From the NCBI GenBank assembly GCA_030753015.1, contig JASMDC010000019.1:1-62750 (forward strand): a stretch of DNA of 62,750 nucleotides, given 5' to 3'. This document shows positions 1 to 56,914 of the stretch, piece after piece. The notes beneath the pieces were generated by a model. That model worked only from the letters and a program-made list of their open reading frames with translations. It was not told where the DNA came from and made no database searches. The DNA comes from Candidatus Undinarchaeales archaeon (lineage in GTDB: Archaea; SpSt-1190; JASMDC01). The position numbers and the translations under genes were made by a program. Position 1 is the first letter of the stretch, and every line of letters starts with the position of its first letter.

Positions 1-65
1 TAATACAATAGGGGGCTGGCGTGCCGGTACTCGTCCGGAAAGTACCTTTCGGCTCTATCCCCCCC

Positions 66-110
66 CTCACGGAAGGGGACTTCCCACCGAAACAAAAAAA
101 AGAGTTAAAA
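66..110 (+). promoter_or_regulatory. Conserved promoter-like element, copy 1: palindrome GGAAGGGGACTTCC, then CCGAAAC, an A-run and GAGTTAAA (TATA-like), ending about 25 nt before the GTG at 134
   Basis: A near-identical roughly 45-nt element is seen at three loci (66-110, 15036-15080, 36125-36167). The TTAAA sits 25-29 nt upstream of the start codon in the two leaderless cases. Confidence 0.55.
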
Positions 111-133
111 AGTACCACGGACTCTATTCCTTT

Positions 134-1930
134 GTGGGAAGATGTAACTTTCGTCCCCGGCTGCTCTCGTACAGCCGTGGCCAAGGGTTCATCGTGGAGT
201 ACTTCCTCTCCTTCGCACTCTTCCTGTTCGTTTTCGTGTCAGTTCTCGTGCTGCTGGTCCAGACGCTCCTCCCCCGAGTCGACGACTCCCGTTTCTACAC
301 AAACACCATGATGGCGCGACGCGCGGCCCTCCAGCTCCTCACGGAGGAGGCAGGGTACGTTCAGTGGTGGAACAAGGACCTGAACACGCGGGTTCTGTTG
401 AACATCACCGATCATGGTGGCGAGCGCTCGAGCCATCGCTGGGTGAACATCTCTGGTCAACGCTTGAACAACTCCGGTATCGACATCAGCGTCATCGACT
501 TCAGCACCCTCCATGTGTACGAGCGCAGCTACATGTCGAACGAGCTGATCAAGTTCAATCCGGGAAACGATGACGCCTTGAACCGCGCGGACGAGATCCA
601 TTTCAAGGTGTTCTTGGGGGACCTCCGGTCGGTGGTCGTACACCTCTACTTCGACCGGCTCAAGAATGTCGTCCCGGTGGAGAAGTATATCGTGAACACA
701 GAGAAGGACACCGCGAAGCGCGGGCTTGCGGACGACCTCGATATCACCGCCAGGGCCCCGACCGGTTCGAAGACCGGCAAGGGGCGGACGTTCGACTATG
801 CCCTCTCCACCATTGACGTGCAGATCGGTCAGATGTCCCAGATCATCTCCGTGACCTGGACAGCGGAGAACGCCACCGACTACCTCACCGTAGGGAGGAC
901 CGATATGGACTTAATGCTCAATACCCATCCTTATCTCGACCTCTACTACAAGGTGACCGGGACGGACAATCCGTTCAATATGGCCTACATATTCAGGTAC
1001 GACTCGAACCTATACCAGGACACGGTAGAGCTGTACCCACTCGATGCCAACGCTACGGGCGTATGGCGGCATGTGCACATGAACCTCGAGGACGCCGCGC
1101 ACGAACTGATCGGTATCTCGAGCGGACACCCGTCCATCCACCTCACGGCCTTGTTTATCAATCTCACCGACGCCGAGCGCGACCGGTGGGAGGGTTCCAC
1201 CTTCCTGTACTTCGACGACATCACCCTCAAGCCACCGGACGACACCAAGGCCCTCACCGGAGGGGAGGGGACTGAGGACAGGATCCATGCCGTGGTCATG
1301 GAGACGCTGGAGCAGGCCCACTGGCTGGCACGGAACGAGATCCCCGAGAGCTTCGGGTTCACCACCGACGAAGGCCGCACACTCAACCATACCTCTATCG
1401 TCCGGTTCAGAGAGCTCCAGTCCATCGAGAGCTACGAGGAGCTCAAGCATGTCCTGGGCATAGACGATAAGTACCACACCCGTATCAAAATCGTCCGTCC
1501 CGTGTCCCGAAACATCATCAACGTCACGACCGACGAGACCATCTACGATTATGGTACCAACCGCACCGTGCACATCAACATCATCATGCCTCCATACGTC
1601 ACCGATAAGTGGCCCGAGGAGTGCACGTTCCCATCCTACACGTCCGAGGATCCCTGTATCCTGCTCGTCCTTCTCAGGCCGGACGGTACGTCCACGACGC
1701 TTGTCGTCCCCCATCTGGAGACTATAACCGAGAGGGTGGAGACGCGGTTCTTCACCGACAAGGACACCGTAAAGACGGGCGAGGTCGTGTTCTCACGGCT
1801 TGCATACGCCACCGACTACAACCTCACCATCACCGATCCGGCCGGTACCTATGGCATCCAGGTGTACGCGCTAGCCGCGGAACCGCGCGGGCTCCTCCAC
1901 GGGTACGGCACATTCTCACTGAGCCGGTGA
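134..1930 (+). CDS. Cell-surface glycoprotein with a type IV pilin-like (class III) signal peptide (leader MGRCNFRPRLLSYSRG | QGFIVEYFLSFALFLF...). It is rich in N-x-S/T sequons and may be a pilin-like or S-layer-like structural protein.
   Basis: There is a GTG start 25-29 nt after the TATA-like TTAAA of the conserved element, which suggests a leaderless mRNA. The N-terminus matches the RG|Q...EY pattern (a DUF361-like pilin signature) followed by a hydrophobic stretch. There are more than 10 NxS/T sequons. The product is a 598-aa ORF. Confidence 0.5.
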   Translation: MGRCNFRPRLLSYSRGQGFIVEYFLSFALFLFVFVSVLVLLVQTLLPRVDDSRFYTNTMMARRAALQLLTEEAGYVQWWNKDLNTRVLLNITDHGGERSSHRWVNISGQRLNNSGIDISVIDFSTLHVYERSYMSNELIKFNPGNDDALNRADEIHFKVFLGDLRSVVVHLYFDRLKNVVPVEKYIVNTEKDTAKRGLADDLDITARAPTGSKTGKGRTFDYALSTIDVQIGQMSQIISVTWTAENATDYLTVGRTDMDLMLNTHPYLDLYYKVTGTDNPFNMAYIFRYDSNLYQDTVELYPLDANATGVWRHVHMNLEDAAHELIGISSGHPSIHLTALFINLTDAERDRWEGSTFLYFDDITLKPPDDTKALTGGEGTEDRIHAVVMETLEQAHWLARNEIPESFGFTTDEGRTLNHTSIVRFRELQSIESYEELKHVLGIDDKYHTRIKIVRPVSRNIINVTTDETIYDYGTNRTVHINIIMPPYVTDKWPEECTFPSYTSEDPCILLVLLRPDGTSTTLVVPHLETITERVETRFFTDKDTVKTGEVVFSRLAYATDYNLTITDPAGTYGIQVYALAAEPRGLLHGYGTFSLSR

Positions 1931-4916: not shown

Positions 4917-4965
4917 GGTTCGCGTCCTCCTCAGGAAGGGGGACCAAAGCATAAAAATGGACCCA

Positions 4966-8571: not shown

Positions 8572-8683
8572 ACTAAGAAACGGGTCTGTATGCAATAAAT
8601 ACCTTTCCCCCCAAGCGCTGCGAAACGGGGCTCACGCTTATAAGCATGGACGGCCACCGAGGTGCCCGGCTCCCTGCCCACGG

Positions 8684-9832
8684 ATGGTGACCATGGCCCC
8701 GATCCCGCCCACCTCGCCCCTGGTGCTCGTCCCGCTGCTGGCACTGGGCGCCATCACCTCCCTCACCGACATCAGGGAGGGCAAGATCAGGAACAAGCAC
8801 GTCTTCCCTTTCATCCTTCTGGGTATCCTCAGGATGCTCATCCTGGACACCCACGGTTACCTAGGCCTGCTGAACACGGGTATCGCCCTGGCCGCGGGAT
8901 TCGGGCTCTGGCACCTCAACCTCTGGAGCGCGGGCGACGCCAAGCTCTTCCTCGCCTTCGCTGCCCTCGTCCCTCTCAACGATCTGACCATGCAGTTCAA
9001 TCAGGTCTACTGGTTTCCCTCCTTCATGGTGCTGGTGAACACCTTCGTGCCGATGTTCGCGCTCATGCTCTTCCGACTGCTGTTCTTCACACCCCTGGCC
9101 ATGAAGACGATGCTCCTGCGACGCGTCCTCAAACCGGTCCAGGTGGTGAGCGTCGGGATGGCGCTCTTCGTGTTCATCTGGCTGGGCCGGGTGCTCATGG
9201 ACGCCCTCGGGCTCCCCCAGGTGTTCATCATCAACCTGCTCATCATGTTCGCCTGCATCGAGGTCATCGACCGGGTGGCACCGACGGGTGCGATGCCCGT
9301 GTACGCAGTCCTTTCGGTCGTCCGGCTCGCCGTGGACCCTGGTGTGTGGGAACCGGGCTTCATCGCCGCGTTCGGGACCCTCCTCATATCCTTCCTCCTG
9401 CTGCGCTACTTCGTCATCTACATGGGCCACCACTTCTACAGCACTCCCTGCGCTATCGACGAGCTCAAGCCCGGGATGATGCCCTCGGAAGGCATCGTCG
9501 AGAAGGACGGGAGGTACCACAAGGTGGAGCTCATCACCATCAACATCCTCTCTGCCATGCGCCTCAAGAAGCTCAAGCTGGCCTTCGAGATGCGGTCGAA
9601 GGGTCTCAACGAGGAGGAGGTCGAGCGCATCAAGAAGCTGGCAGAGGACGATAAGCTCCAGTTCGATGAGATCCTCGTCCAGCAGACCACGCCCTTCGCC
9701 CCCTTCATCTTCCTCGGCGCTCTCCTCACACTATATACCGGGGGCGATCCCGTGACCTACGTCAAGGTGGTCCATCCCGATCTCGTGCGCAGCATATTGC
9801 CAGCGGTCCTGGCACCCTACATCGGCCTCTAG
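8684..9832 (+). CDS. A24-family prepilin/preflagellin peptidase homolog (long form with a C-terminal extension), PibD/EppA-like
   Basis: A catalytic Asp motif (SLTDIREGKIRN) lies near the N-terminus, and a second Asp motif (WSAGDAKLF, GxGDxK-like) is present. The protein is polytopic. It is divergent from the giant Cys-rich surface-protein gene. Confidence 0.6.
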   Translation: MVTMAPIPPTSPLVLVPLLALGAITSLTDIREGKIRNKHVFPFILLGILRMLILDTHGYLGLLNTGIALAAGFGLWHLNLWSAGDAKLFLAFAALVPLNDLTMQFNQVYWFPSFMVLVNTFVPMFALMLFRLLFFTPLAMKTMLLRRVLKPVQVVSVGMALFVFIWLGRVLMDALGLPQVFIINLLIMFACIEVIDRVAPTGAMPVYAVLSVVRLAVDPGVWEPGFIAAFGTLLISFLLLRYFVIYMGHHFYSTPCAIDELKPGMMPSEGIVEKDGRYHKVELITINILSAMRLKKLKLAFEMRSKGLNEEEVERIKKLAEDDKLQFDEILVQQTTPFAPFIFLGALLTLYTGGDPVTYVKVVHPDLVRSILPAVLAPYIGL

Positions 9833-14949: not shown

Positions 14950-15035
14950 CAGCTTCACGGGCGCATCGGGTGGTCCCCACCCTGATCGATCCTGAATGTT
15001 GATCGCAGCGTTCAGGTCACGGTCGATGATAAGAC
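14950..15035 (-). pseudogene. Remnant of the 3' end of an IS200/IS605-family tnpB (OrfB)
   Basis: The minus-strand translation is ...LIIDRDLNAAINIQDRSGWGPP. DRDLNAAINI is the hallmark C-terminal TnpB motif. There is no upstream Zn-finger or RuvC part. Confidence 0.35.
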
Positions 15036-15080
15036 CTCTCGGAAGAGGACGTCCCGCCGAAACAAAAAAAGAGTTAAAGA
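15036..15080 (+). promoter_or_regulatory. Conserved promoter-like element, copy 2 (CGGAAGAGGACGTCCCGCCGAAACAAAAAAAGAGTTAAAG)
   Basis: The TTAAA at 15075-15079 is 24-28 nt before the ATG at 15103. Confidence 0.55.
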
Positions 15081-42189: not shown

Positions 42190-43824
42190 ATGCGGTCGCT
42201 GGGTGCCCTGTTGCTCGTCTTCCTTCTCCTCGCCATGGTGGAGGCCGCCGAGCCCGTTGTGAAGTACAGCGGGGCTTCCTTCGATGACAGCCTTTATACG
42301 GGAGAGACGAGCGTGATGCAGGTAAAGGTCACCTCCACTTACGACACCGGTAACGCGCCCAATGTTAACGTCATCCTGGACGCCGCCGAGTCCGGTGGCA
42401 AGCTCAAGCTCTACCGCATCACGTCGCGCGCTTTCACCAAGCGCACCATCCCCTGCTCGGACGCCGCGTACAACCGTCACGAGAACATGAACGTTGCGCT
42501 CACAAAGGGCGTCAACATGTTCCTCTACGCCATCCAGCCATGCGAGAACGTGTTGCCGGGCACCTATGCCCTGGAGTTCAAGGTGGACGGTACAGCCGTC
42601 GTGGAAGAGATAACGGCCAAGGTGCAGTCCCCTATACGGATCTCGGTATCGGCCGGCACCGTCAGGTTGGGCGCTGCTAAGACAATGACCGTCACTATCA
42701 TCAATCGCGGGAACGAGCTTCTGGAGAACGTAGCGATCGAGTTCGCAAGCCCGTTGCCCGGTAAGATCACCATCAAACCCACACGTATCCGGCTGGACGA
42801 GAACCTGCCCCTCAAGGCATCGACGAAGTTCGAGGTGACGGTGAACTCCACACTGGACACCCCTGCCATCGAGTATCCTCTGAACGTGTACGCGTCCTAC
42901 CGGACATTCGAGACCGTGACCACGGTGCGCGAGCCCATCCCGGACAAGGTCATCAAGGTGATCCAGGGTGACAATCCCAAGCTTGACCTGGCCGTACGGG
43001 ACCCGGCCGACATCAACGTGGAGGAGCCCAAGTTCGCCTCCGTTCTTGGTAAGGAGTTCTCCGTGGCGTTCCCCCTCAAGAACATCGGGAAGGGGCAAGC
43101 AGAGAAGTGCACTGTGGAGCTCACCATGCCCCACGGTGTGTTCGTACCCACCAACGTCTCCCGTCCGTACGAGTTCCGTGAGCTTGTCACCGAGGACATG
43201 CTCGTCATCGACATGGGGACACTGGAAGGGGGCGACGAGGGAGATGTCCAGGTCATCTTCCTACCCCTCCTGGTCGAGACCACTCCTCAGGGCACCACTG
43301 AGGTCGACGTCCTGGCCCGGTGCCTGAACATGGCAGAAAAGGAGATGAAGAGCAGGGGTATGACCCTGAAGGTCGGCCTCAAGTTCCCGGAGCCCGAGTT
43401 CGATCTGGGTGCGGACGTACCCGACACAGTGGTCGAGCCTGAGAGCTTCATCACCGCCAAGGTGGCCCTGAAGACACTGGAGTCCCAGAAGTGCACTCTC
43501 CGTGTGAAGTGGCCCATCTACCTCCATTACATGGACACGCTGGGCAGGTTCCAGTGGAGCGCCAATCCCGAGGTGAACGGGACCTACGAGAAGACGCTGC
43601 GGCTCAAGAGCTCCGCGGAGCACCGTTCGACCTCGGACCACGACATCCAAGTCACCGCCACCTGCAAGAACAGCCTTAATGTGACCGCGTCCCAGGAACG
43701 ACGGATCGCTCTACACTACGTCTCGCCCGGTGGACAGCAGGACCTGATCGTTTACGGTATCGTGGGGCTGGGCGCCGTACTGGTCGTGCTTATCGTGCTC
43801 TTCCAGCTAACCAAGAATAGCTAG
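42190..43824 (+). CDS. Secreted cell-surface protein with a C-terminal TM anchor
   Basis: It has a Sec signal (MRSLGALLLVFLLLAMVEA), Ig/CARDB-like beta-rich repeats, and a C-terminal TM (LIVYGIVGLGAVLVVLIVLF). A TATA-like TTTTTAATATTT lies about 21 nt before the ATG. The 3' end overlaps convergently with the prepilin peptidase gene. Confidence 0.55.
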   Translation: MRSLGALLLVFLLLAMVEAAEPVVKYSGASFDDSLYTGETSVMQVKVTSTYDTGNAPNVNVILDAAESGGKLKLYRITSRAFTKRTIPCSDAAYNRHENMNVALTKGVNMFLYAIQPCENVLPGTYALEFKVDGTAVVEEITAKVQSPIRISVSAGTVRLGAAKTMTVTIINRGNELLENVAIEFASPLPGKITIKPTRIRLDENLPLKASTKFEVTVNSTLDTPAIEYPLNVYASYRTFETVTTVREPIPDKVIKVIQGDNPKLDLAVRDPADINVEEPKFASVLGKEFSVAFPLKNIGKGQAEKCTVELTMPHGVFVPTNVSRPYEFRELVTEDMLVIDMGTLEGGDEGDVQVIFLPLLVETTPQGTTEVDVLARCLNMAEKEMKSRGMTLKVGLKFPEPEFDLGADVPDTVVEPESFITAKVALKTLESQKCTLRVKWPIYLHYMDTLGRFQWSANPEVNGTYEKTLRLKSSAEHRSTSDHDIQVTATCKNSLNVTASQERRIALHYVSPGGQQDLIVYGIVGLGAVLVVLIVLFQLTKNS

Positions 43825-44457
43825 GCGAAAGGGATCCCCGAGCAGCAGGTTCGCTAATACCGAAACGAGGAGGAACGGCGCCATCGGGATCCGCAGTTCC
43901 TGTCCCTCGAGCCTGAAGAGCATGAGCAGCGCCGTGGCAGCTGCGAAGAGCACCGGGACCAGAGCTGTCGTGACATCGCCGTGCAGGAGGAGGAATAGCG
44001 TCGCGCCGATGAGCATGCCCAGGGGCGCGTCTCGTCTGCGGAAGGCCGGTCGGTTTCCTTCGCGCACGACCTGCCAGACGTACCACGCCAGGCCGACGAC
44101 CTGGGCGAGTAGGACGGCGAGCACCAGCACTGCTACGGGGAAGGGGAGGATGGCAGGAAGACGGATCACTACACCGTCGTGGACGAAGCCCTGGACCCTA
44201 AGGGGCGAGAGTAGGCAGAGGGCGCACACCAGCTTCACATCAGCGCCCCCGATGCACCGGGCCCGGTACCACAGGAACACGAGACCGAGCATCAGGAGGT
44301 TTACGGAGAACTGGTCGGGATCATGTCCGATGATTAGATAGGCCACCGCGCCTATCGCTAGGAGCGCATCGGTGATGAGCGGGCGGACCTCGCCCGTGCG
44401 CAGGTCGTCGAGGGAGGCCGCGGCCAGGCCGGCCACGAGCGCGTACAGGCGCCACAC
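43807..44457 (-). CDS. A24-family prepilin peptidase (FlaK/PibD/EppA-like), short form, the last gene of the class III signal-peptide operon
   Basis: The first catalytic Asp motif is SLDDLRTGEVRP and the second is IGGADVKLV (GGxDxK). It has 5-6 TM helices. The GTG start is 1 nt after the upstream gene's stop. Confidence 0.75.
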   Translation of the reverse strand: MWRLYALVAGLAAASLDDLRTGEVRPLITDALLAIGAVAYLIIGHDPDQFSVNLLMLGLVFLWYRARCIGGADVKLVCALCLLSPLRVQGFVHDGVVIRLPAILPFPVAVLVLAVLLAQVVGLAWYVWQVVREGNRPAFRRRDAPLGMLIGATLFLLLHGDVTTALVPVLFAAATALLMLFRLEGQELRIPMAPFLLVSVLANLLLGDPFRLAILG

Positions 44458-44458: not shown

Positions 44459-46708
44459 CTACTTCCACACCTCGAGGTTGAGCACGCCCGCGCCCCTACC
44501 GCCCCGGGGCGCTACGACTCGGTTGACTGACACCACACCGTACTTTGCCTGAGTGGACGGGATGCAGCCGAAGTCCGGGTTCTGACAGTTCGCCATCCCC
44601 TCGGGCTGCTCGCCCACCTCTTGAGCAGGATCTGGATCGGTCATGAAGGGCTCGGCTTGGTATTGTGGATCGTAGCAGAATGTCTCACAGCTCCCCTTAT
44701 CCTCGATACCGCGGACCACGCACACGGCCGGATCGACCTCCGGGTCCCACTCACCGCCGACATCCTCCCCCTCACAGAACGCCGGGTTCATCCCCACGGA
44801 CGTAACTGTGCACCGGCCACCCGGCCCTTCGCCGGGATCGTTCCACGCCCACGCGGTCGTAAGGTGCTCACATGCTTGGAGGGAATCGGCGGCGAGCAAA
44901 CACTCGTCGTTCACCCAGGAACCTCCGACGTCGGGATCGAGGCAGTCAACATCGTTCTCGATCTTCACGGCCACGCATCGCGGATCGGGCAGGTCCTCGG
45001 TCCATTCCGTGTTGCCCGCGGCCTCGCAGGTCTGCTCGTCAGAGATGAGCCAGATAAAACAGGCCGGATCGTTCCAGACGCCGTTGATACCCTCACACGT
45101 TGCCTGGTCAGGCGCTTCTGCGGGAAGTGTCCTGCAGTACTCGGTAGGGAGCCATTCGGCCTCAGCCAACGCGCCCTCGCACGTTGTCTGGTCGGGAACG
45201 GTCGGGAGGAGGCAATCGCCCCGCTCATCATCCCAGAACGTAAGGTACTGCCCGGGATCATCGCCCCAGAACGTGGCCTCCCCATCGAAGGTGGAAGTCG
45301 CCTCCAAGGCTACACCATACGTGCGAGTGGGCACGTCTCCGGTAAAAGTATCACTGTGCTGTATAGCGAACCGGCAGTTGTTGGTTTGCGTGAAGGTGCC
45401 CACGATAGTGGCGCCAGCGAAAGTCTCATCCCCCTGTCTGAAGGTGGTGTACGTGATGGTGGCGGTCACACCGCTAGCGTCCGACACGATCGTGATGGTC
45501 GGTTCCTCACCGGGATCGCATACATTCGGCGAATAGCAGATCGATGTTCCGGCCTGGCACGCGACCACGAGATCATGCTTGAACACAGGACGCCATGAAG
45601 GGGATCCGGGGGTCGCGGGATCCGTGTCGGCGTCGCCATCTGAAGCGACATAATAATCAATGAAGCTGACAAGGCTCCCGTCACACGCCGCCCCGACATG
45701 GACACGGAACCTCGACTCCACGATACCACAGTCGACCGTGTAGACCTCTGACGCACCGTCCATGGTCTGCTGGATAGTCCCCGCGGGGTGCTGTCCGGCC
45801 CCTACAGGGAACCCGCGGTTGGACGTCAGGTACGCATCGGCCGCTGCCCCGAGCGTACCGGAGGATATGTCGCTCTCATCGGGGATGATATCGAAGACGA
45901 CGGTCCCACTATCGTAGCTGTCCGGACAGTTCCCCGCTTTGCAGGCAACGATCGCCACTTGGAGATAGTCCCCGTTAGCATCGACTTTCAACTGGGTGAG
46001 ACCAACATCCCCTGGTGTGTAATCATCTGCCGTCGTCAAATGGAGACACATACCTCCGGGATTCTCCCGGTTGCATGTACCGGTCGAATGACCGGCCTCA
46101 TTGATCTGGAAGACCGCTGCGTTCCTGAGGATGATTCTTGTCAGTTCATTGTCTCCGTATAAGAAACTGCCGTCCATCTCGCGATACCCTGCGGATAAGA
46201 TGCGGCAGTTATTGGCATTTTCCGTCACCGGATCAGTGACAACGCACCGGGGTACTGACGGATCCTCGAACCACTGAGTGTCGACGGGTAACGTGATATC
46301 CCGGTCCACGCCCATGTCCTCGTCCTTGCATACATACATGCTCAGACGCCAGCCATAACCTAGGGAGCCTTCCGTGGTCATCAGAGGTGAGAAGAAGGTT
46401 GGCCCCACCAAGAAGGGATCTAATCCAGTTAGGGCCTCGTCGTCGATAACGTTCAGCCGGTCGATGCCCATCCCCTCGTCATAGTACGAGACACCGTACT
46501 GATAGCTGTTCGGTGAGGAGTCCACCATGGCGGTCATGAAGTCATCGGAGACCATCTTGAGGTCGTACACAGTCTCCCACTCGACCCGATCTTTATTCAC
46601 CTCGGTCTGTATCCGCTCCATGGCGGTGAAGAGAAGAACGAATATCCCTAGTGCGATGAGGATGTCGATGGAGAAGGTCTGCCCTCGTCGACGTCGTCCT
46701 AGCCTCAC
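44459..46708 (-). CDS. Giant class III signal-peptide (pilin-like N-terminus) protein, about 750 aa
   Basis: The GTG start at 46708 overlaps the upstream stop (GTGA). The N-terminus is MRLGRRRRG|QTFSIDILIALGIFVLLF. The protein has a large Cys-containing extracellular domain. Confidence 0.6.
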   Translation of the reverse strand: MRLGRRRRGQTFSIDILIALGIFVLLFTAMERIQTEVNKDRVEWETVYDLKMVSDDFMTAMVDSSPNSYQYGVSYYDEGMGIDRLNVIDDEALTGLDPFLVGPTFFSPLMTTEGSLGYGWRLSMYVCKDEDMGVDRDITLPVDTQWFEDPSVPRCVVTDPVTENANNCRILSAGYREMDGSFLYGDNELTRIILRNAAVFQINEAGHSTGTCNRENPGGMCLHLTTADDYTPGDVGLTQLKVDANGDYLQVAIVACKAGNCPDSYDSGTVVFDIIPDESDISSGTLGAAADAYLTSNRGFPVGAGQHPAGTIQQTMDGASEVYTVDCGIVESRFRVHVGAACDGSLVSFIDYYVASDGDADTDPATPGSPSWRPVFKHDLVVACQAGTSICYSPNVCDPGEEPTITIVSDASGVTATITYTTFRQGDETFAGATIVGTFTQTNNCRFAIQHSDTFTGDVPTRTYGVALEATSTFDGEATFWGDDPGQYLTFWDDERGDCLLPTVPDQTTCEGALAEAEWLPTEYCRTLPAEAPDQATCEGINGVWNDPACFIWLISDEQTCEAAGNTEWTEDLPDPRCVAVKIENDVDCLDPDVGGSWVNDECLLAADSLQACEHLTTAWAWNDPGEGPGGRCTVTSVGMNPAFCEGEDVGGEWDPEVDPAVCVVRGIEDKGSCETFCYDPQYQAEPFMTDPDPAQEVGEQPEGMANCQNPDFGCIPSTQAKYGVVSVNRVVAPRGGRGAGVLNLEVWK

Positions 46709-47181
46709 GGTCCGCACCTCCAGTCCTGAGTATCGATGCACAGGTACATAGTCTTCCCATCGCACTCCATCCTGATAGAGCGCTCGTACACGATGGGATT
46801 CGATGACGGGCTGAACTGGAGCGGGGCATAGGCCTCGTAAGGACCGAAGTACTGCATCTTCGTGTCGTAGACCACGTGTACATAGAACCGCACCGGCCCG
46901 ATCTCCGCCTCCCTGAGGGAATAGGTGAACATGGACGCGTCGCAGGTAATCGTCTTGTTGAGGCGACCTACGGCGAAGTACGGATTCATGGCGGCGGCCA
47001 CCCGCTCAGCCTCGTCGACAGTTCGCTGCTTGAGGGTCTCCTCACGACGATCGTTCCGATGGCCCATGAACTGAGACGCTAGTGCGCTGATGACCACCAT
47101 GTAGATCGCCAGAATGGTCATGAGCTCCAGCGCCAGCTGGCCTCGGTCCGACCGGAGGTGATTTCCCCTACTCATCCTCAT
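46705..47181 (-). CDS. Pilin-like class III signal-peptide protein (about 158 aa)
   Basis: The N-terminus is MRMSRGNHLRSDRG|QLALELMTILAIYMVVISALA (Gln+1, Glu+5). The start lies 2-8 nt after the upstream stop. Confidence 0.55.
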   Translation of the reverse strand: MRMSRGNHLRSDRGQLALELMTILAIYMVVISALASQFMGHRNDRREETLKQRTVDEAERVAAAMNPYFAVGRLNKTITCDASMFTYSLREAEIGPVRFYVHVVYDTKMQYFGPYEAYAPLQFSPSSNPIVYERSIRMECDGKTMYLCIDTQDWRCGP

Positions 47182-47710
47182 CCTCCTTGGGGACGCCCCC
47201 TTCGGCGAACAGGCGCACGCGTCCGTGCCGGCACTGTATCTTGAGCTTGACCGAACCGCAGATGAGGTTACCACAGGTGACCTCAAGCCTGTAGCGCTCT
47301 TCAGGCTCGTCTTTCCACTCACCGATGGAGAATGTGCCGAAGTGTCGCCCGTTCACGTAAGCGGATCCTGTCGGTGGTGCCTGATCGAACTGGGAACGCG
47401 GGACCTCCACCTCGATACCCTGCACCGCACCGCTAGCGAATTCCTCTTCACGGTGACGGACGTTGATATGACGTGACCATGTGAAGACCTGGAGGTGCTC
47501 GGTGTTGTGCGATCCACCGTCACAAGCGTGTTCCAGTGCTAAAGCGAGCTTCTTTGCTATGATCTCCGCACGCTTCGCGGAGTTACGGTCGGCGAGCCGC
47601 TGATTCTCCATCTGGGCCGTGAACAGGAGCATCGCGAAAAGCATGAGCACTGCGGACATGAGCGCCAGTGTTTCTAGTGGCACCTGTCCCCGTTGTGCCC
47701 GAACCATCAT
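47168..47710 (-). CDS. Pilin-like class III signal-peptide protein (180 aa)
   Basis: The N-terminus is MMVRAQRG|QVPLETLALMSAVLMLFAMLLF (Gln+1, Glu+5). There is an ATGA overlap with the upstream gene. Confidence 0.6.
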   Translation of the reverse strand: MMVRAQRGQVPLETLALMSAVLMLFAMLLFTAQMENQRLADRNSAKRAEIIAKKLALALEHACDGGSHNTEHLQVFTWSRHINVRHREEEFASGAVQGIEVEVPRSQFDQAPPTGSAYVNGRHFGTFSIGEWKDEPEERYRLEVTCGNLICGSVKLKIQCRHGRVRLFAEGGVPKEDEDE

Positions 47711-50601
47711 GTCGCACCCCCCATGACCTTGTCCACGACGACCATACCTTCGCCCGCCTGCCCGGACGTTTCGGGAAGGATCTGACAGCTCACTCCGATG
47801 GTCCCAATCCCTTTGAACACGATGTCGAAGGGTTCGGTCCGAGTCGTGAAGGTGACAGGTACCACTGAATCGGCCAATGGATCGTAAGCAGCGAACCGCT
47901 TGAACCCCTGCTCGCGCCGCACTTCGACCAGCGAGTCCTGGCCCACATCGAGGTCAAGAATCTCGAAGATCTCCTCACCGATGTAGAACTCGATCTCGGA
48001 TGCCGTACCCCACTCGGTCTGTGGGAACTGGACGCCTTTCACGTCGTCGGGATTGATCGTGGCCTTGAAACGCGCCGTCCAGACATTCGTGATTCCGCCA
48101 TTTTCACATGTTACGTCGGTGAGCCTGGTGAGGATGTAGCAGAAACCTGCGCCACCATTGGCATCCTGGTCCCAGAAACCATCGGCCTTGGTGCACAGTC
48201 GCTCGCTGTTCAGTGAGGCGTAAACGCAGCGTAGAGGTAGAGGATCGTCCTGCCAGACCCCGTTGGCCGTGCAGGCCCAATTGGATCGGTCGCCCGTGAG
48301 CACGTCGGCGGGCGTCTTGCATGTGCCGTCATCGGACACGACGGTGAGCGCTTGATTGTCCTTGTTGACGAAGGTCGCTCGCCGGAGTTCCCGGGGACTG
48401 TTGAGCTGTTCGGCACCGAGCATAACCTGGCGCAGGACGGTGGTCACAGCAAGGATTGCGGTCTCGTCGTCGGCCAGATGGAACCGGAACGTCCCCAACC
48501 GCGGGAACACTACCTCGACCGTCTCGTCAGGATCGAGGTCAAGTGATACCTTCGGGCCCCACATGACGGCCTCGTCTTCCTCGATGACACACAGGTCCTG
48601 AGTGACCCTGAGGTTATCGATACAGCCCAGCTCGTCGTGCCAGTGATAGCCCCCGCCGTGAAGCCAAGTCCCACCGGCCGGTTCACACGCCACCTGTGCG
48701 AAATCGCAGCTATCGGTGAAGCTCGACCATGTCCCGGCGGCGTCATCGCACGTCGTTGGGGTGAGCACGCACCCGAGCAGTTCCTCCCACTTACCACCAA
48801 GGTCCTTGCAGGATTCCTCGATGAAGTTGCATGAGCCCGGGCCCACTTCGCACTCCTCCGGTGAGGCCACGTCGGCTAGGGTACAGGACTCGATAGGGAC
48901 GCCCAAGTCGGCCCGAGGTTCGTTCCACTCGCCATTGATGGTACAGAGGCTCTCTGCCGTGTCGACACCGTTCGAGCATCCTAGCTCCTCGGACACTATG
49001 GATACGGACACCGTGTCGGGATTCCTGAAGACGACAACTCCTTCCAGAGGGATAGATACCATGCCAGGATCGATCATCAGCGGATGGACCTCGACCTCGC
49101 GAGTGTCCACGAACACCTCAAGGATGTCATCGGGTACTACGTCGGGATCGCCCGCGATACGGAACCGGTGAACTCCCGAGCGGGTGAAGGTCACCGTGTC
49201 GCTGTCAAGACCGCACGTGAGCACATTCTCGTTCCACACGCCCCCCGCAGTCTGGCAGTCCTCGACGGTGAGAAAGGCAGCAAGGGTGGGGTTCTTGAGA
49301 ATGTAGATACGGTCGTATTTGGGAACCCAGCCCCCGTCATCGCGCTCGCATGCTTCACGGGAGACGGCTCGTTCGGCGATATGACAACCTGCACCGGCGA
49401 CCATATCGCCTCCATTGTCCGTGCAGAGATCGACCACATCACAGATGAATGTGCCAACGTCCCACGAACCAACTGTACCAATGAGTGCATTGCAGGCATC
49501 CTCGGTGCCGATGTCAGCGAAGAACACGCACAGGTCCACGCCATCGGCCCCTGCGCCAGGTCTGAACCGTCCTGCCCGGTCCCGAGTGAGCGCGGGATCA
49601 CCCGCCCTGCAACGGTCCTGGCTCACTGAACGAGAGGGCATGTTGCACACAGTCCCCTCGTCACCGAGGTCCACGATCTCCCCGCCCGCAGCCTCGCACG
49701 GAACTCGGACGTCGCACAGGGGCTCATCGCCTTCGATCCACTCCCCTCCCTCGGCATTGCACGACTCCTGCGTGGCGAGCCCGTCGTAGAACTCGCACAG
49801 GTTGCCAGCATCGTCCGCTTGCTGATACGTCCCCTGCAGTCCGCACATGATCTCGGTGTCGCCGTAGTCGCTGGAGCACCACCCGTTCGCGGACACGAGC
49901 CTGATGCCACAGGATCCGCTCCCCTCGTGCCAAGCACCACCCGCATCATGACATGCCACCGGTGTCATGTCGCAGCCACCAAGGTCATTGTTCCAGACAC
50001 CGCCCGCATTCCCGCAGCCGGTCATGGCGAGCTCGCAGGTCGTGTCGCCCTCGTTCCAGATACCGCTCGCAGCACGACACTCGTCCTCTGCGAGGGTGCA
50101 GACGTCGGGACCTCCAACCCAGGTACCGCCCGCGATCCGGCATGCACGCTCGGCGAGCTCGCAGATGCTGTCTGCACCATCCCACGTACCCCCGGCGCCA
50201 TCCTCGCATGCAGTCTCGGCGTCCAGGTCGGGGAAGCTGTCATGGTTCTCGATGATAATGCGGTCGTTCACGGTAAGATCCGTGATCCGTGCAGGCCATA
50301 ACCCTTCACGTAGCAACTGGACGTTCCGTATCCTTGATGTCGCGTGCACACGCGTGTAAGGCGCGGCAGGGACCTTCACCAAGGCCATGTCGGGGGTCGC
50401 TGGCTCGCACACGGTCTCGATCGCCGTGGCGAGCTCGAACCCCATGGCCCCCAGATGCTTCTCGTCAGCAAGTTGTTCGAACGATATGTACTTCAGCTGC
50501 GCTTGGTAGAGCACGTAGCCGAACATCATGAATATGGCCGTGGCAAGGACCATGAACTCGAGGGCCACCTGACCACGGAAGCGCCTTCTCACGGACAGCA
50601 C
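47707..50601 (-). CDS. Giant class III signal-peptide protein (964 aa) with Cys/Trp/Gly repeats
   Basis: The N-terminus is MLSVRRRFRG|QVALEFMVLATAIFMMF (Gln+1, Glu+5). It has repeated CxxxxGGxWxxGxxxCxLA units of about 22 aa and is an acidic, Cys-rich extracellular protein. Confidence 0.65.
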   Translation of the reverse strand: MLSVRRRFRGQVALEFMVLATAIFMMFGYVLYQAQLKYISFEQLADEKHLGAMGFELATAIETVCEPATPDMALVKVPAAPYTRVHATSRIRNVQLLREGLWPARITDLTVNDRIIIENHDSFPDLDAETACEDGAGGTWDGADSICELAERACRIAGGTWVGGPDVCTLAEDECRAASGIWNEGDTTCELAMTGCGNAGGVWNNDLGGCDMTPVACHDAGGAWHEGSGSCGIRLVSANGWCSSDYGDTEIMCGLQGTYQQADDAGNLCEFYDGLATQESCNAEGGEWIEGDEPLCDVRVPCEAAGGEIVDLGDEGTVCNMPSRSVSQDRCRAGDPALTRDRAGRFRPGAGADGVDLCVFFADIGTEDACNALIGTVGSWDVGTFICDVVDLCTDNGGDMVAGAGCHIAERAVSREACERDDGGWVPKYDRIYILKNPTLAAFLTVEDCQTAGGVWNENVLTCGLDSDTVTFTRSGVHRFRIAGDPDVVPDDILEVFVDTREVEVHPLMIDPGMVSIPLEGVVVFRNPDTVSVSIVSEELGCSNGVDTAESLCTINGEWNEPRADLGVPIESCTLADVASPEECEVGPGSCNFIEESCKDLGGKWEELLGCVLTPTTCDDAAGTWSSFTDSCDFAQVACEPAGGTWLHGGGYHWHDELGCIDNLRVTQDLCVIEEDEAVMWGPKVSLDLDPDETVEVVFPRLGTFRFHLADDETAILAVTTVLRQVMLGAEQLNSPRELRRATFVNKDNQALTVVSDDGTCKTPADVLTGDRSNWACTANGVWQDDPLPLRCVYASLNSERLCTKADGFWDQDANGGAGFCYILTRLTDVTCENGGITNVWTARFKATINPDDVKGVQFPQTEWGTASEIEFYIGEEIFEILDLDVGQDSLVEVRREQGFKRFAAYDPLADSVVPVTFTTRTEPFDIVFKGIGTIGVSCQILPETSGQAGEGMVVVDKVMGGAT

Positions 50602-52301
50602 CTCTTACCGTTGCACGTGCGCATGGCATGCCTGATGAGCGGGTACACGCGCAGTACACGCAGGAAACATTCGTCGTCGACGGGACACCTTGTGAGTGTG
50701 TGATACCCGGCGTCGGTGTACGCATCGTCCGTGGCCCACTTATGCATGATTGTCGTGAAATTGTGGATGCCGCGCTGGTCCGGAAGGTCCTCAGCCAGTA
50801 TCTCCGCGAGAGATATTGTACTGCCGTCAGCCAGGTTGACCTGGTGGTAGTCCGTGGGGTAGAAATCGTTTGCTTCCATACGGCAGGCGATATTGTAGAA
50901 GGCCCATACGTCGAAATCAGCGAGATGATAATCGCATACGGTATCGCCCGATGACAGGTACTCATCTCCCACTCCCAGATGGACGGGGAGCTTCGTCACC
51001 ATGCTACCGTCCTCGCCAAGGAGCTCTATCTCTCCGTCGTACATGGTCGTGGGAAGCAGGCTGCTCAATCCGTTCTCCACGATTGTCTGGAACCTGCACC
51101 GGGAGCGCATAACGACGCCCTCTGCTGCTCCGAACGTATCAGGATCGTTGCCGTCTATCGCCAGTGAGTAAGCGCATGGATAGCATGTATCCACGGGATA
51201 CAGGTCGTCGTAATCGGTCTCACCGTGCGAGCACGCGCCGCATGGCGTGGCTTCCGCCTCCTCTGGCTCCTGAACCCCGCTGTAGAGACCGTACCAACTC
51301 TGTGGGTAGGTAAGGCCCGTGTCCTCGTCCACAGCAAAGAAACCCTCGATGAACTCATCATTTTCCGGATCAGTGTACCGCGAGCAGGTGTTGCTGATAT
51401 GGATTCCGAACGCCCGACGAAGGATGTCCCGCGGGTCCGGCGGTTCCGCACCTTCTTCGCCGCCTTCACCACCGCCTCCGCCGTCAATTTCACAGAACTC
51501 CTCGAAGGCGTGGCCCCGGGGGATACCGTAGGGCCCGAGGGTTAAATGGTCGCTGAGAATGCACATCCCAAGCTCTACCGCAGCGCAGAGCGACCGGGCA
51601 GGACCGCAGGCCTTCCCCGCCTCGCGTGCGTACGTTGCAAGTTTTGACATGTTCACCGCATAGTCGACGTTGACGTCCGGCAGCTCCATCTCGCAGCATC
51701 CTATGTTGTACCCCACTGGGGGTGCGTATGAGTTGTACTGTCCGATATCAATCTCTTCCAGGGTGAGCACTGGTTCGGGATCCCCCTCGACCTCAGGTGC
51801 AGGTTCGTCAGGATCGGCGGCGGGGGCGTTATCAGAGGGCTCGAACCGCAACCGTAGCCGGGGCATGCTCCTGAGCCGAGCGGCCACCTCACCCTTCCAG
51901 TCGTCGTCACCCGGACCATCGATCAACGGTGGGTATTGCTCGCGAGCAGCATCGACGATGGACTGGAAGTCATTGGGACAGTTCGTCCCGAGGTTCATGG
52001 TATCGTAACGATTGTTGAGCATGAGTGGCAGGTCCACGACGCTGTGGCCGAATAGCTCCCCGGGAACCCCGCTCCATGCACCAATAGCAGCGAATCCTCC
52101 ATCCACGACCCCTATCTCGAGAGCTGTCTTGTGATAACGAAGGAGATTGATAGCAGCGCGTTCCTCGAGGTCGATTGTGGCCCGTGCCGAGCGTGCCTGG
52201 TTGATCGTGGCCACTTCCAGCACTCCGTACGCGATGACGATGAAGATCGCCAGAGAGATGAATCCCTGCCGCTCGCGTCGGTCTACTCCCGCCATACGCA
52301 C
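50589..52301 (-). CDS. Class III signal-peptide protein (570 aa)
   Basis: The N-terminus is MRMAGVDRRERQG|FISLAIFIVIAYGVL. It overlaps the upstream gene by 18 nt. Confidence 0.6.
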   Translation of the reverse strand: MRMAGVDRRERQGFISLAIFIVIAYGVLEVATINQARSARATIDLEERAAINLLRYHKTALEIGVVDGGFAAIGAWSGVPGELFGHSVVDLPLMLNNRYDTMNLGTNCPNDFQSIVDAAREQYPPLIDGPGDDDWKGEVAARLRSMPRLRLRFEPSDNAPAADPDEPAPEVEGDPEPVLTLEEIDIGQYNSYAPPVGYNIGCCEMELPDVNVDYAVNMSKLATYAREAGKACGPARSLCAAVELGMCILSDHLTLGPYGIPRGHAFEEFCEIDGGGGGEGGEEGAEPPDPRDILRRAFGIHISNTCSRYTDPENDEFIEGFFAVDEDTGLTYPQSWYGLYSGVQEPEEAEATPCGACSHGETDYDDLYPVDTCYPCAYSLAIDGNDPDTFGAAEGVVMRSRCRFQTIVENGLSSLLPTTMYDGEIELLGEDGSMVTKLPVHLGVGDEYLSSGDTVCDYHLADFDVWAFYNIACRMEANDFYPTDYHQVNLADGSTISLAEILAEDLPDQRGIHNFTTIMHKWATDDAYTDAGYHTLTRCPVDDECFLRVLRVYPLIRHAMRTCNGKRCCP

Positions 52302-53536
52302 ACCTTCACCGTGACTACCTGCGGACAGGCCAGGGGCTGGACAAGCGGGGGATCTAGGTCATCACCGCAACTGTTCCGGCCCAGGTTGAGCCCACACAGG
52401 GTCACCTCGCGCTCCACGCAATACACGGTCCGCGGAGGTGGATCCGTGGGGATGTGACAGGGGCAGAAGAATCCAAAGGGATTGTCGCAGTCGTTACTGG
52501 GATCGTCATCGTACCGACTGTTGTCGAAGCATCGTCGGAACTTAATGAATCGGGCCGGATCGTCATCGGCCACTATATCCGGTAAGTCGGGCACGACAGA
52601 TATAATCCTATTCGCTGCTCCCGCGATGCCCTCTGCTCCTTCCAGCGCCTCCCTTACAGTGCGCGCTGCATAGGTCCGGGGTGTAGGCGGATTCGCCTCG
52701 GGAGGATCCTTCTCGGGGGGGAAAACCTTGGGGAAAAGCTTCGGAATCAACCGATCAAGCTCGCGGTCCTCGGCCATCTGGTCGGCCGTCGCCAGTTCAG
52801 GATTAGTCGCGAAGAAGTTGATACCATAAGTGCTCACGTACCTGACCGTGGGATCCTCGGCGTCCTCGTTGATCCTCTGGGCGAACCGACCGAGGCCTGG
52901 CGGGTCCATGCGCCATTCACCATCATCTACTACAGTGCAATCCTCTGCGGTCGTCACATCCGCTCGTACACACTCACCGACACCACCGTCCCAGGTCCCA
53001 CCGGCCGTCGTGCAGTCCGGATCATTGTCGATAGTGGTCACAACGCACCGTGGATTAGGATCCTCTACCTCCACGATTTCCCGTTTTGCGTATTCGGTAA
53101 GATAGATACGGTACGCGCCTGCGAGCTCGTTATCGATATCCCCCGCGTCGATAGCTACACGATTGGCCTCGTACCACGCAGCATAGCTCATTCCACCCGC
53201 TCCGTCGTCCACCGCTCCCGGTAATAATCCCAAAAGCCACGGGTCCTCGTACTGTATGAAGAACCGGTACACGGGGTACATCCCGGCGATGGTCTCCAGA
53301 CCCATGCTTCCGCAGCTGCGCTCGGGCGGGAACGCGAAGGGGCAGCTCTGGACATGCTCGGCCGACTGGCTGCACGCGTTGATGATGTCATGGGCCAGAC
53401 GCTGGGCATTGAGCGCCTCTGCGTTGGGATAAGGGAAGTGGTGGACGGCCACCGATGAGAGGATGAGCACCGACAGCGTCATGGTGAGGAGGGCGTCCAT
53501 GGTGAAGATGAAGCCCGCCCGCTCACGTCGCTCCAT
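52283..53536 (-). CDS. Class III signal-peptide protein (about 418 aa)
   Basis: An internal Met start 2 nt after the upstream stop gives MERRERAG|FIFTMDALLTMTLSVLIL. Confidence 0.6.
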   Translation of the reverse strand: MERRERAGFIFTMDALLTMTLSVLILSSVAVHHFPYPNAEALNAQRLAHDIINACSQSAEHVQSCPFAFPPERSCGSMGLETIAGMYPVYRFFIQYEDPWLLGLLPGAVDDGAGGMSYAAWYEANRVAIDAGDIDNELAGAYRIYLTEYAKREIVEVEDPNPRCVVTTIDNDPDCTTAGGTWDGGVGECVRADVTTAEDCTVVDDGEWRMDPPGLGRFAQRINEDAEDPTVRYVSTYGINFFATNPELATADQMAEDRELDRLIPKLFPKVFPPEKDPPEANPPTPRTYAARTVREALEGAEGIAGAANRIISVVPDLPDIVADDDPARFIKFRRCFDNSRYDDDPSNDCDNPFGFFCPCHIPTDPPPRTVYCVEREVTLCGLNLGRNSCGDDLDPPLVQPLACPQVVTVKVCVWRE

Positions 53537-53538
53537 GT

Positions 53539-56901: not shown

Positions 56902-56914
56902 ACCTGCGGCCCGT

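What the first reader, a model, noticed from the sequence alone, without database searches (positions are those of the whole stretch)
134..1930. Highly expressed-looking class III (Gln+1) signal-peptide protein with dense N-glycosylation sequons as the first gene after the conserved promoter
The GTG start sits exactly where a leaderless TSS is expected, 25-29 nt after the TTAAA. The N-terminus MGRCNFRPRLLSYSRG|QGFIVEYFLSFALFLFVFVSVLVLL fits the RG|Q...EY pilin pattern. The mature 580-aa part carries at least 10 N-x-S/T sequons and no other TM. It is a candidate major structural subunit, pilin-like or S-layer-like. If so it could be serviced by the peptidases encoded in this window and might be the filament that the giant class III proteins decorate.
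Basis: partly seen in the sequence, partly recalled or inferred. Interest (0 to 1): 0.6.

Follow-up and report, generated by a model that had tools for sequence, protein, structure and literature searches.

The report
Orphan pilin-signal surface glycoprotein, Undinarchaeota
This gene encodes a lineage-restricted, probably N-glycosylated surface protein of a tiny marine DPANN archaeon; it starts with a pilin-type export signal and carries a sugar-binding-like domain, so it looks like a large adhesin or minor pilin, an ordinary kind of protein, and not the main filament subunit.

Summary
Window 134-1930(+) is a real 598-aa gene. It starts at an invariant GTG 29 nt after an invariant TTAAAAAG box. 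It encodes an Arg-rich 16-aa leader ending in RG|Q, a single 29-residue hydrophobic helix, and about 550 aa predicted to lie outside the cell. Between orthologs the helix codons change almost only synonymously, so the N-terminus is translated.

All four orthologs carry 10-12 N-x-S/T sequons against about 4 expected.

Five other RG|Q/A proteins and two A24 prepilin peptidases lie in the window, one of them syntenic. The class III reading is therefore plausible, although the curated class III HMMs do not match.

The idea of a major filament or S-layer subunit is not supported. The protein is far too large, and small class III proteins elsewhere in the window fit that role better.

Best reading: a large pilin-like glycan-binding adhesin or minor pilin, a new member of a known kind.

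The parts
57..104 (+). Repeated upstream element (5-bp hairpin GGAAG-GGGA-CTTCC plus an A-run). It is copy 1 of 3 in the window and abuts the TATA-like box.
   Evidence: 3 matches against 0 expected. The other copies are at 15027-15072 and 36116-36161, each directly upstream of a + strand gene. The element is absent upstream of the orthologs.
105..112 (+). TATA-like box TTAAAAAG, 29 nt (first T) upstream of the start codon.
   Evidence: Invariant in the window and in L001, L005, L008 and L010. A function as promoter is inferred from the position only.
134..1930 (+). Coding sequence, 598 aa, GTG start; an orphan surface protein.
134..181 (+). Leader, codons 1-16 (MGRCNFRPRLLSYSRG). It is Arg-rich, variable between orthologs, and ends in an invariant SRG.
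   Evidence: mostly non-synonymous changes (for example 5 non-synonymous against 1 synonymous), but the charge is retained.
182..271 (+). Predicted mature N-terminus, QGFIVEY plus a hydrophobic helix (residues 17-46). It is the only hydrophobic segment.
   Evidence: KD19 up to 3.05. (6-10 synonymous against 0-1 non-synonymous changes). (helix, pLDDT 79-83).
515..1234 (+). Central beta-rich domain (residues about 128-367). Its last about 110 residues model as a CBM-like jelly-roll and it ends in FLYFDDITL.
1454..1927 (+). C-terminal beta-rich domain (residues about 441-598) with two conserved Cys (497, 508). It is the most conserved part of the protein.
   Evidence: near-invariant. (strands, low confidence). 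(the P0005 fragment is 63% identical over the last 70 aa).
8684..9832 (+). Prepilin-type peptidase (Peptidase_A24 + Arc_PepC), about 382 aa; a candidate processing enzyme.
   Evidence: the A24 match, 26.0 bits, is just below the Pfam cut-off of 26.5; the Arc_PepC match passes its cut-off. (TDIREG and AGDAKL motifs). It is syntenic in L011, a 379-aa gene with Arc_PepC.
43807..44457 (-). Second, small Peptidase_A24 (216 aa), adjacent to the cluster of class III-type genes.
44459..57505 (-). Cluster of genes whose products begin with RG|Q/A or R(A/Q)G|F plus a hydrophobic helix. It is the context showing that this signal type is used in this genome.
   Evidence: Weak Pfam Class_IIIsignal hit for the 964-aa protein (E 0.011).

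Best explanation
The gene encodes a lineage-specific cell-surface glycoprotein of an Undinarchaeota (DPANN) archaeon.

Proposed mechanism:
- It is made from a leaderless or near-leaderless mRNA starting at GTG134.
- It inserts N-in/C-out through its Arg-rich leader and single hydrophobic helix.
- An A24 prepilin-type peptidase probably cleaves it after Gly16 (RG|Q). This leaves a pilin-like hydrophobic N-terminal helix that holds the protein in the membrane or lets it join a type IV pilus-like fibre as a minor, adhesin-type subunit.
- The about 550 extracellular residues are N-glycosylated at about 10 sites.
- They contain a carbohydrate-binding-module-like beta-jelly-roll domain and a C-terminal beta domain, so the protein most likely binds glycans on a host cell or a surface.

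Shown: the start codon, translation of the helix, a single hydrophobic segment, conserved sequon excess, orphan status, and peptidases nearby.

Inferred: cleavage, glycosylation, the CBM-like fold and its ligand binding, and any incorporation into a fibre.
For: Start and N-terminus:
- GTG134 is the only start codon upstream of the helix and is invariant.
- Helix codons show 6-10 synonymous against 0-1 non-synonymous differences per ortholog pair. The leader varies but keeps its Arg residues and the SRG|QGF motif.

Signal type:
- A six-frame scan for [KR]G[QAS] followed by a hydrophobic 20-mer gives 6 hits. All lie at N-termini of long ORFs, and five are clustered beside an A24 peptidase.
- A second peptidase (A24 + Arc_PepC) lies 6.7 kb downstream and is syntenic in a relative.
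- +1 Gln with a nearby acidic residue is the EppA-substrate pattern (PMC4371748).

Glycosylation:
- All four orthologs carry 10-12 sequons against about 4 expected (P <= 0.003).
- Asn inside sequons is invariant in 9 of 10 cases, against 8 of 19 outside (Fisher 0.016).

Fold:
- Residues 128-365 align to the non-catalytic N-terminal domain of a GH123 surface protein.

Context:
- Orthologs sit beside a secreted DUF2341 protein. DUF2341 proteins in archaeal type IV pilus loci have been proposed as tip adhesins, and other non-major class III proteins as minor pilins (PMC4858521).
- Undinarchaeales were reported to encode pili and ConA/LamG adhesion-type proteins (PMC7414124).
Against: - Pfam Class_IIIsignal and NCBIfam models give no hit to the N-terminus, even at E <= 10.
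- +2 Gly and +3 Phe, and an acidic residue at +6 instead of +5, depart from the usual pattern.
- A second possible cut (QG|F) makes the site ambiguous.
- No pilus assembly ATPase or platform protein was seen in the window.
- The gene is 42 kb from the class III cluster.
- No oligosaccharyltransferase was seen in the window.
Confidence: 0.5

Rival explanations
1. It is an uncleaved signal-anchor (type II) membrane protein. The Arg-rich N-terminus and long helix simply tether a glycosylated ectodomain to the membrane, and the RG|Q resemblance to prepilin sites does not lead to processing.
For: - The 29-residue hydrophobic segment is long enough for a stable transmembrane anchor.
- The curated class III HMMs do not match.
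- +2 Gly, +3 Phe and +6 Glu are atypical.
- The gene is not inside the class III cluster.
Against: - SRG|QGF is invariant while the rest of the leader drifts.
- The same RG|Q motif heads five other proteins in the window and occurs nowhere else in six frames.
- An A24 peptidase is a conserved neighbour.
- An acidic residue buried near the start of the helix is a pilin feature (PMC4371748).
Confidence: 0.27
2. The protein is the major structural subunit of a filament or an S-layer-like lattice, highly expressed, onto which the giant class III proteins are mounted.
For: - It has a strong-looking TATA box with an invariant spacer.
- It has heavy, conserved sequon content, as in many archaeal S-layer and filament proteins.
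- It has a pilin-like N-terminus.
- It has an acidic ectodomain (80 D+E against 53 K+R).
Against: - A mature size of 582 aa with at least two beta domains is far from major pilins. Those listed are small, and the window itself has 196-, 180- and about 150-aa class III proteins.
- The family is confined to one narrow clade and has no relatives in other Undinarchaeota-level diversity. That is unusual for an essential envelope protein, though such proteins do evolve fast.
- It has a GTG start.
- There are no expression data.
Confidence: 0.1
3. It is a secreted or surface-tethered glycan-processing enzyme or substrate-capture protein. This would be analogous to bindosome sugar-binding proteins, which also carry class III signals, and would make it something other than an adhesin.
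For: - The only remote relative of the central domain sits in a GH123 glycoside hydrolase.
- The best fold matches are CBMs attached to glycanases.
- Class III signals are known on Sulfolobus substrate-binding proteins.
Against: - No catalytic or solute-binding family is detected in the protein.
- The region aligned to P0006 is its non-catalytic N-terminal part.
- No transporter genes are adjacent.
Confidence: 0.1
4. The true start is the downstream ATG (Met59/60), giving a soluble protein without the hydrophobic segment.
For: One gene caller chose that start in P0003.
Against: - The upstream 58 codons are intact in that locus too.
- They evolve under strong purifying selection in this frame.
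- The TATA box sits 29 nt before GTG134.
Confidence: 0.02

Closest known systems
EppA-type class III (prepilin-like) signal peptides of euryarchaeal Epd pilins (Methanococcus maripaludis EpdA-E; Pfam Class_IIIsignal/DUF361)
   Same: - A short basic leader ending in [KR]G.
- Gln at +1.
- An acidic residue early in a long hydrophobic helix.
- N-glycosylation sequons in the mature part.
- A prepilin peptidase encoded nearby.
   Different: - The acidic residue is at +6, and +2/+3 are Gly-Phe.
- The Pfam and NCBIfam models do not match.
- The mature protein is about 582 aa, where Epd pilins are small.
- The organism is a DPANN archaeon.
Large class III / DUF2341 'adhesin or minor pilin' proteins predicted in archaeal type IV pilus loci (Makarova et al. 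2016, PMC4858521)
   Same: - A large secreted protein with a pilin-type N-terminus.
- In relatives it lies next to a DUF2341 protein, among other surface proteins and a peptidase.
- A WWN...R motif at the start of the ectodomain resembles the WWHSDW..R start of the neighbour's DUF2341 region (a lead only).
   Different: - There is no DUF2341 Pfam hit in this protein.
- hhalign finds no relation to the neighbour.
- It is not located in a locus with an assembly ATPase or platform gene.
Beta-jelly-roll carbohydrate-binding modules (CBM11, CBM30, CBM8, CBM44, CBM4)
- The terminal strand motif FLYFDDITL resembles that of CBMs (own knowledge).
- The sequence relative P0006 carries the domain in front of a GH123 module.
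   Different: - Sequence identity is 9-18%.
- The model confidence is low.
- No CBM Pfam family matches.
- Ligand binding is untested.
Sulfolobus bindosome sugar-binding proteins (class III signal on large non-pilin proteins)
   Same: They set a precedent that large functional ectodomains are exported and anchored through a prepilin-type signal processed by PibD.
   Different: No solute-binding-protein domain and no adjacent ABC transporter are present here.
ConA/LamG-type putative adhesion proteins of Undinarchaeales (arCOG07813; Dombrowski et al. 2020, PMC7414124)
   Same: - The same phylum.
- The same proposed role, attachment through beta-sandwich lectin-like domains.
   Different: No detectable sequence relation to LamG or DUF2341 models was found. 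Membership of that arCOG was not testable here.

Membership tests
Archaeal class III (type IV prepilin-like) signal peptide proteins | Short positively charged leader ending in Gly/Ala at -1 with Lys/Arg at -2 | tested here: met
   The leader is MGRCNFRPRLLSYSRG, with four Arg and R-G at -2/-1. SRG is invariant in 4 orthologs.
Archaeal class III (type IV prepilin-like) signal peptide proteins | Hydrophobic stretch of about 20 residues or more immediately after the cleavage site, and no other membrane segment | tested here: met
   KD19 exceeds 1.6 only for windows starting at residues 16-32. The maximum elsewhere is 1.27.
Archaeal class III (type IV prepilin-like) signal peptide proteins | Match to the curated models (Pfam PF04021 Class_IIIsignal/DUF361; NCBIfam archaeal pilin or flagellin N-terminal models) | tested here: not met
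   There was no hit at E <= 10 for the 60-aa N-terminus or for the full protein. Only the 964-aa window protein gave a weak PF04021 hit (E 0.011).
Archaeal class III (type IV prepilin-like) signal peptide proteins | FlaFind-positive | not testable with these tools
   FlaFind is not available. From memory its motif prefers aliphatic or small residues at +2 to +4, and Gly-Phe here may fail it.
Archaeal class III (type IV prepilin-like) signal peptide proteins | Cognate A24 prepilin peptidase encoded by the organism | tested here: met
   There are two. The first is 8684-9832(+), with A24 + Arc_PepC and the TDIREG / AGDAKL motifs. The second is 43807-44457(-), with A24. The first is syntenic in L011.
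Archaeal class III (type IV prepilin-like) signal peptide proteins | Actual cleavage after Gly-1 | not testable with these tools
   This needs N-terminal proteomics or an in vitro peptidase assay.
EppA-substrate subclass (Gln+1 pilins) | Gln at +1 and Glu at +5 | tested here: inconclusive
   Gln+1 is present and invariant, but Glu is at +6 (QGFIVE). Four other window proteins have Q/A-x-x-L-E with Glu at +5, and one has Asp at +6.
Major type IV pilin / archaellin-like filament subunit | Small mature protein (roughly 70-300 aa) with one globular domain on the N-terminal helix | tested here: not met
   The mature length is 582 aa with at least two beta-rich regions and a helical linker.
Major type IV pilin / archaellin-like filament subunit | Encoded with, or served by, an assembly ATPase (PilB/FlaI) and a platform protein (PilC/FlaJ/TadC) | tested here: inconclusive
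   Pfam found none in any window ORF scanned. The rest of the genome was not available.
N-glycosylated archaeal surface protein | Excess of N-x-S/T sequons on the extracellular part, maintained in relatives | tested here: met
   There are 10, 11, 12 and 11 sequons against 3.6-4.6 expected, P 0.0034 to < 0.0002. Sites turn over but the number is kept. Sequon Asn is invariant in 9 of 10 cases, against 8 of 19 for other Asn.
N-glycosylated archaeal surface protein | Oligosaccharyltransferase AglB present and glycans attached | not testable with these tools
   No STT3/AglB hit was found among the window ORFs scanned. The genome outside the window was not searched. Glycoproteomics is needed.
Carbohydrate-binding module (beta-jelly-roll CBM) | Beta-sandwich jelly-roll fold | tested here: inconclusive
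Carbohydrate-binding module (beta-jelly-roll CBM) | Sequence membership in a CAZy/Pfam CBM family; demonstrated glycan binding | tested here: not met
   There is no Pfam hit at E <= 10 and no PDB sequence hit at E <= 10. Binding was not testable.
DUF2341 (PF10102) adhesin-type proteins | Match to PF10102 | tested here: not met
   There is no hit. hhalign against the DUF2341 neighbour gives probability 1.3%.

The most novel reading that the evidence does not exclude
The protein could be the principal host-recognition lectin of this Undinarchaeota lineage. In that reading it is a heavily glycosylated, pilin-anchored glycan-binding protein displayed on, or polymerised with, the type IV pilus-like apparatus, and it evolved de novo or beyond recognition within one genus-level clade. 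Its rapid turnover would then reflect an arms race with the host surface. The opposite sequon bias of the other large surface proteins, which are strongly depleted, would point to selective and functionally partitioned N-glycosylation in a DPANN cell envelope.
Probability: 0.12. Interest if true: 0.6.

Novelty: new member of a known kind. Interest (0 to 1): 0.3.

Why it matters
DPANN archaea live attached to other cells, and their surface proteins are the likely determinants of partner choice. Almost none of these proteins has been characterised.

This gene gives a concrete and cheap-to-test candidate: a clade-restricted ectodomain with a lectin-like module, a conserved glycosylation pattern, and a pilin-type anchor next to its probable peptidase.

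It also extends the RG|Q (EppA-like) signal type to Undinarchaeota, and shows that the curated class III HMMs miss these proteins. Beyond that it is an ordinary example of a known category, large class III-signal surface proteins. It is not a new mechanism.

Tried and rejected
1. Family assignment by HMM. Pfam and NCBIfam gave nothing on the full protein or on the 60-aa N-terminus. PDB sequence profiles gave nothing at E <= 10.

2. Deepening the alignment. The word-indexed search found only 4 close orthologs. A profile with P0006 added found only one fragment. A search with the P0006 domain alone found nothing. The exhaustive representative search found only 3 clusters. The scan of GTDB genomes found one species representative, a Candidatus Undinarchaeota archaeon.

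3. Structure. The full-length AlphaFold2 model is unusable (pLDDT 34.8). The domain model is only partly usable. The afdb50 library was unavailable.

4. Paralogy with the neighbouring DUF2341 protein was rejected (hhalign probability 1.3%).

5. The downstream ATG start was rejected.

6. A Tat or lipoprotein signal was rejected by inspection. There is no twin-Arg motif, the Cys at residue 4 (which would be needed for a lipobox) is not conserved, and the h-region is too long for a cleavable Sec signal.

7. A link to the convergent B12-radical SAM gene (1933-3288) was considered. Synteny is conserved, but nothing suggests a functional tie.

8. Rfam and tRNA scans of the window found nothing.
Full report
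**What is there**

Window 134-1930(+) is an uninterrupted 598-codon ORF that starts with GTG. TTAAAAAG lies at 105-112, so the GTG is 29 nt from the first T of the box. No Shine-Dalgarno-like sequence lies in between.

The product begins MGRCNFRPRLLSYSRG-QGFIVEYFLSFALFLFVFVSVLVLLVQTLL. This is the only hydrophobic segment. Kyte-Doolittle 19-mers exceed 1.6 only for windows starting at residues 16-32, and the maximum elsewhere is 1.27.

The protein has exactly 10 N-x-S/T sequons, against 4.2 +/- 1.9 in composition-preserving shuffles (P = 0.005). The part after the helix is acidic (80 D+E against 53 K+R). It has two Cys residues (497, 508), conserved in all orthologs.

**Is the start real?**

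Four orthologous loci were recovered, at 78-90% protein identity. In all of them TTAAAAAG, the 21-nt spacer (one variable site) and the GTG are identical. Sequence further upstream is unrelated or much less conserved.

- Codons 17-58 (helix and following residues) differ between loci almost only at synonymous third positions: 7:0, 6:1, 9:0 and 10:0 synonymous:non-synonymous.
- Leader codons 1-16 change mostly non-synonymously (for example 1:5) but keep their arginines and the invariant SRG|QGF.
- No other ATG, GTG or TTG lies in frame between GTG134 and the helix.
- In locus L008 a gene caller had chosen Met59, but the full N-terminal coding region is intact there too.

**Is it a class III (prepilin-like) signal?**

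I scanned all six frames for [KR]G[QAS] followed by a strongly hydrophobic 20-mer. The scan gave six hits. Each lies within about 30 residues of the start of a long ORF.

Five of the hits head genes in a minus-strand cluster at 44459-57505. That cluster ends at a Peptidase_A24 gene (43807-44457). Four of them read RG|(Q/A)xxLE with Glu at +5. One (QTFSID) has Asp at +6, like the target (QGFIVE).

Two further genes in the cluster begin RERAG|F and RERQG|F. A cut after the second Gly of the target (QG|FIVEY) therefore cannot be excluded.

A second and larger peptidase gene (Peptidase_A24 plus Arc_PepC, with TDIREG and AGDAKL motifs) lies at about 8684-9832, 6.7 kb downstream of the target. The same gene order is kept in a relative: target, B12-radical SAM, two surface proteins, peptidase, two radical SAM genes, aminotransferase.

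Gln at +1 with an acidic residue early in the helix is the pattern described for substrates of the EppA peptidase in methanogens (PMC4371748).

Against membership, Pfam Class_IIIsignal (DUF361) and NCBIfam gave no hit to the target's N-terminus, even at E <= 10. Only the 964-aa protein of the cluster gave a weak match (E 0.011). FlaFind could not be run.

My reading is that the signal works like a class III signal (probability about 0.65-0.7). Formal family membership is not shown.

**What is the mature protein?**

It is an orphan.

- The word-indexed search of 5.8 billion clusters found four proteins of 78-100% identity. One is named 'Candidatus Undinarchaeales archaeon' by NCBI.
- The GTDB scan found one species representative, Candidatus Undinarchaeota.
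- The exhaustive HMMER search of 1.84 billion representatives found only three entries: the family itself, a 179-aa apparent chimera whose last 70 residues are 63% identical to the C-terminus (P0005), and one weak hit (P0006, E 2.6e-4).

P0006 is a 1023-aa protein with GH123 catalytic-domain hits and a near-threshold Loki-CTERM sorting signal. Its non-catalytic N-terminal region aligns to target residues 128-365 at 22% identity. It shares motifs such as YLD(L/F)(Y/W)YK(V/I)xGxD and a terminal (Y/L)(F/I)D(D/E)(I/V) strand.

AlphaFold2 failed on the full protein (pLDDT 34.8; only the helix was confident). On residues 74-372, with P0006 added to the alignment, it reached pLDDT 54-79 for residues about 258-369 only.

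I therefore call the central domain CBM-like with modest confidence. The C-terminal 160 residues are beta-rich and are the most conserved part, but their fold is unassigned.

**Glycosylation**

All four orthologs carry 10-12 sequons where 3.6-4.6 are expected (P from 0.0034 to < 0.0002). Eight sites are shared by all four. Others are lost in one lineage and replaced elsewhere, so the number is maintained.

Asn residues inside sequons are invariant in 9 of 10 cases, against 8 of 19 for other Asn (Fisher P = 0.016). This is the signature expected of a protein whose glycans matter. The enzyme AglB and the glycans themselves were not observable here.

**Context and role**

In relatives the gene is transcribed divergently from a Sec-signal DUF2341 protein, or sits near a roughly 2000-aa Peptidase_C25 + DUF2341 protein. 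It is followed by other large surface proteins.

DUF2341 proteins in archaeal type IV pilus loci have been proposed as PilY-like tip adhesins. Class III proteins that are not major pilins have been proposed as minor pilins (PMC4858521). Undinarchaeota were reported to encode pili, and Undinarchaeales to encode lectin-fold adhesion-type proteins (PMC7414124).

The target fits this category: a large pilin-anchored, lectin-like surface glycoprotein.

It does not fit a major filament subunit. It is 582 aa after cleavage, and the window encodes 196-, 180- and about 150-aa class III proteins next to a peptidase. No assembly ATPase or platform gene was detected in the window.

'Highly expressed' cannot be judged. 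The invariant TATA-to-start spacer suggests a constrained promoter or initiation region. The GTG start on a leaderless message is not what one expects for maximal translation (own knowledge).

**The 'conserved promoter'**

The roughly 50 nt upstream of the TATA box (57-104; hairpin GGAAG-GGGA-CTTCC plus an A-run) recur at 15027-15072 and 36116-36161. Each copy ends in TTAAA(A/G) directly upstream of a + strand gene: polyprenyl synthetase, and alanyl-tRNA synthetase whose likely start is ATG36198.

This element is absent upstream of the orthologs, and from the roughly 100 kb of related loci fetched up to that point. The target's core promoter is therefore ancestral, and the repeat is an addition in this genome.

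**Verdict**

The class III and glycoprotein parts of the interpretation are plausible and partly supported. The 'major structural subunit' part is not.

The protein is a new, clade-restricted member of a known kind: large prepilin-signal surface proteins, adhesins or minor pilins. Interest is modest. It would rise only if the protein proves to be the host-recognition lectin of these symbionts.

Noticed in passing
window 57-109, 15027-15078, 36116-36167 (+): A roughly 50-nt repeat, CGGAAGRGGACKTCCCRCCGAAAYAAAAAA(A)GAG-TTAAA, made of a 5-bp hairpin, an A-run and a TATA-like box. It occurs three times, always directly upstream of a + strand gene: the target, polyprenyl synthetase, and AlaRS. It gives 3 matches against 0 expected by shuffling. 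It is absent from the orthologous upstream regions and from the 10 related loci fetched at that point. It may be a mobile promoter module or a genome-specific regulatory element.
   Followed up: partly
window 44459-46765(-), 47707-50601(-), 4966-8595(-), 53539-57135(-): The other large surface or class III proteins are strongly depleted in N-x-S/T sequons. Observed counts are 0, 0, 1 and 3 against 3.6, 3.6, 6.9 and 5.2 expected from composition (Poisson P about 3e-5 combined). This is the opposite of the target. It suggests selective avoidance or use of N-glycosylation among envelope proteins.
   Followed up: partly
window 43807-57505 (-): A cluster of eight or more genes encodes proteins with prepilin-like N-termini: RG|Q/A..LE in the 196-, 964-, 180-, about 150- and about 742-aa proteins, and R(A/Q)G|F in the 500- and 570-aa proteins. 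It also holds a 1198-aa Sec-type protein and ends at a 216-aa Peptidase_A24. Pfam found no assembly ATPase or platform protein, and none of the large proteins has any Pfam domain.
   Followed up: partly
window 8684-9832 (+): A large prepilin peptidase homologue (A24 + Arc_PepC, about 382 aa) is transcribed divergently from the Cys-rich giant gene. Its position is conserved in a relative (L011 18045-19184).
   Followed up: partly
window 4966-8595 (-) and 3327-5099 (-): A 1209-aa extremely Cys-rich surface protein contains four 225-nt tandem repeats (6541-7437) and shorter 159-162-nt repeats, and has a C-terminal membrane anchor. Its roughly 530-590-aa neighbour has a Pro/Thr-rich linker and shares a C-terminal module (CGD..C..GE....CC.DCGC). 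Neither has a Pfam hit.
   Followed up: no
window 13537-14628 (+): An IS110-family transposase gene lies just upstream of copy 2 of the repeated promoter-like element. The relative's locus L011 goes from radical SAM genes straight to the aminotransferase, but was not read far enough to see whether the IS is absent there.
   Followed up: no
window 21642-25565 (+): A 1307-aa protein is built from many degenerate 39-nt-periodic (13-aa) helical repeats. Its Pfam hits are to eukaryote-typical repeat families: SNAP, clathrin/VPS region, and the IFT140/172 TPR.
   Followed up: no
window 19717-21276 (-): The M42/M28-type aminopeptidase ORF contains an internal duplication. Three repeat pairs lie about 792-801 nt apart at 72-78% identity. 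This suggests a tandem two-domain fusion or two fused gene copies.
   Followed up: no
P0005 (179 aa, from the representative library): An apparent chimera. The N-terminal roughly 100 aa look like an esterase/lipase fragment (HGGGF). The last 70 aa are 63% identical to the target's C-terminus. It hints at a more divergent orthologue on a misassembled or frameshifted contig.
   Followed up: no
window 113-133 (+): The 21-nt spacer between the TATA-like box and the GTG is more conserved between genomes (one variable site) than the leader-coding codons that follow it. This suggests a constrained initiator or regulator-binding site.
   Followed up: no
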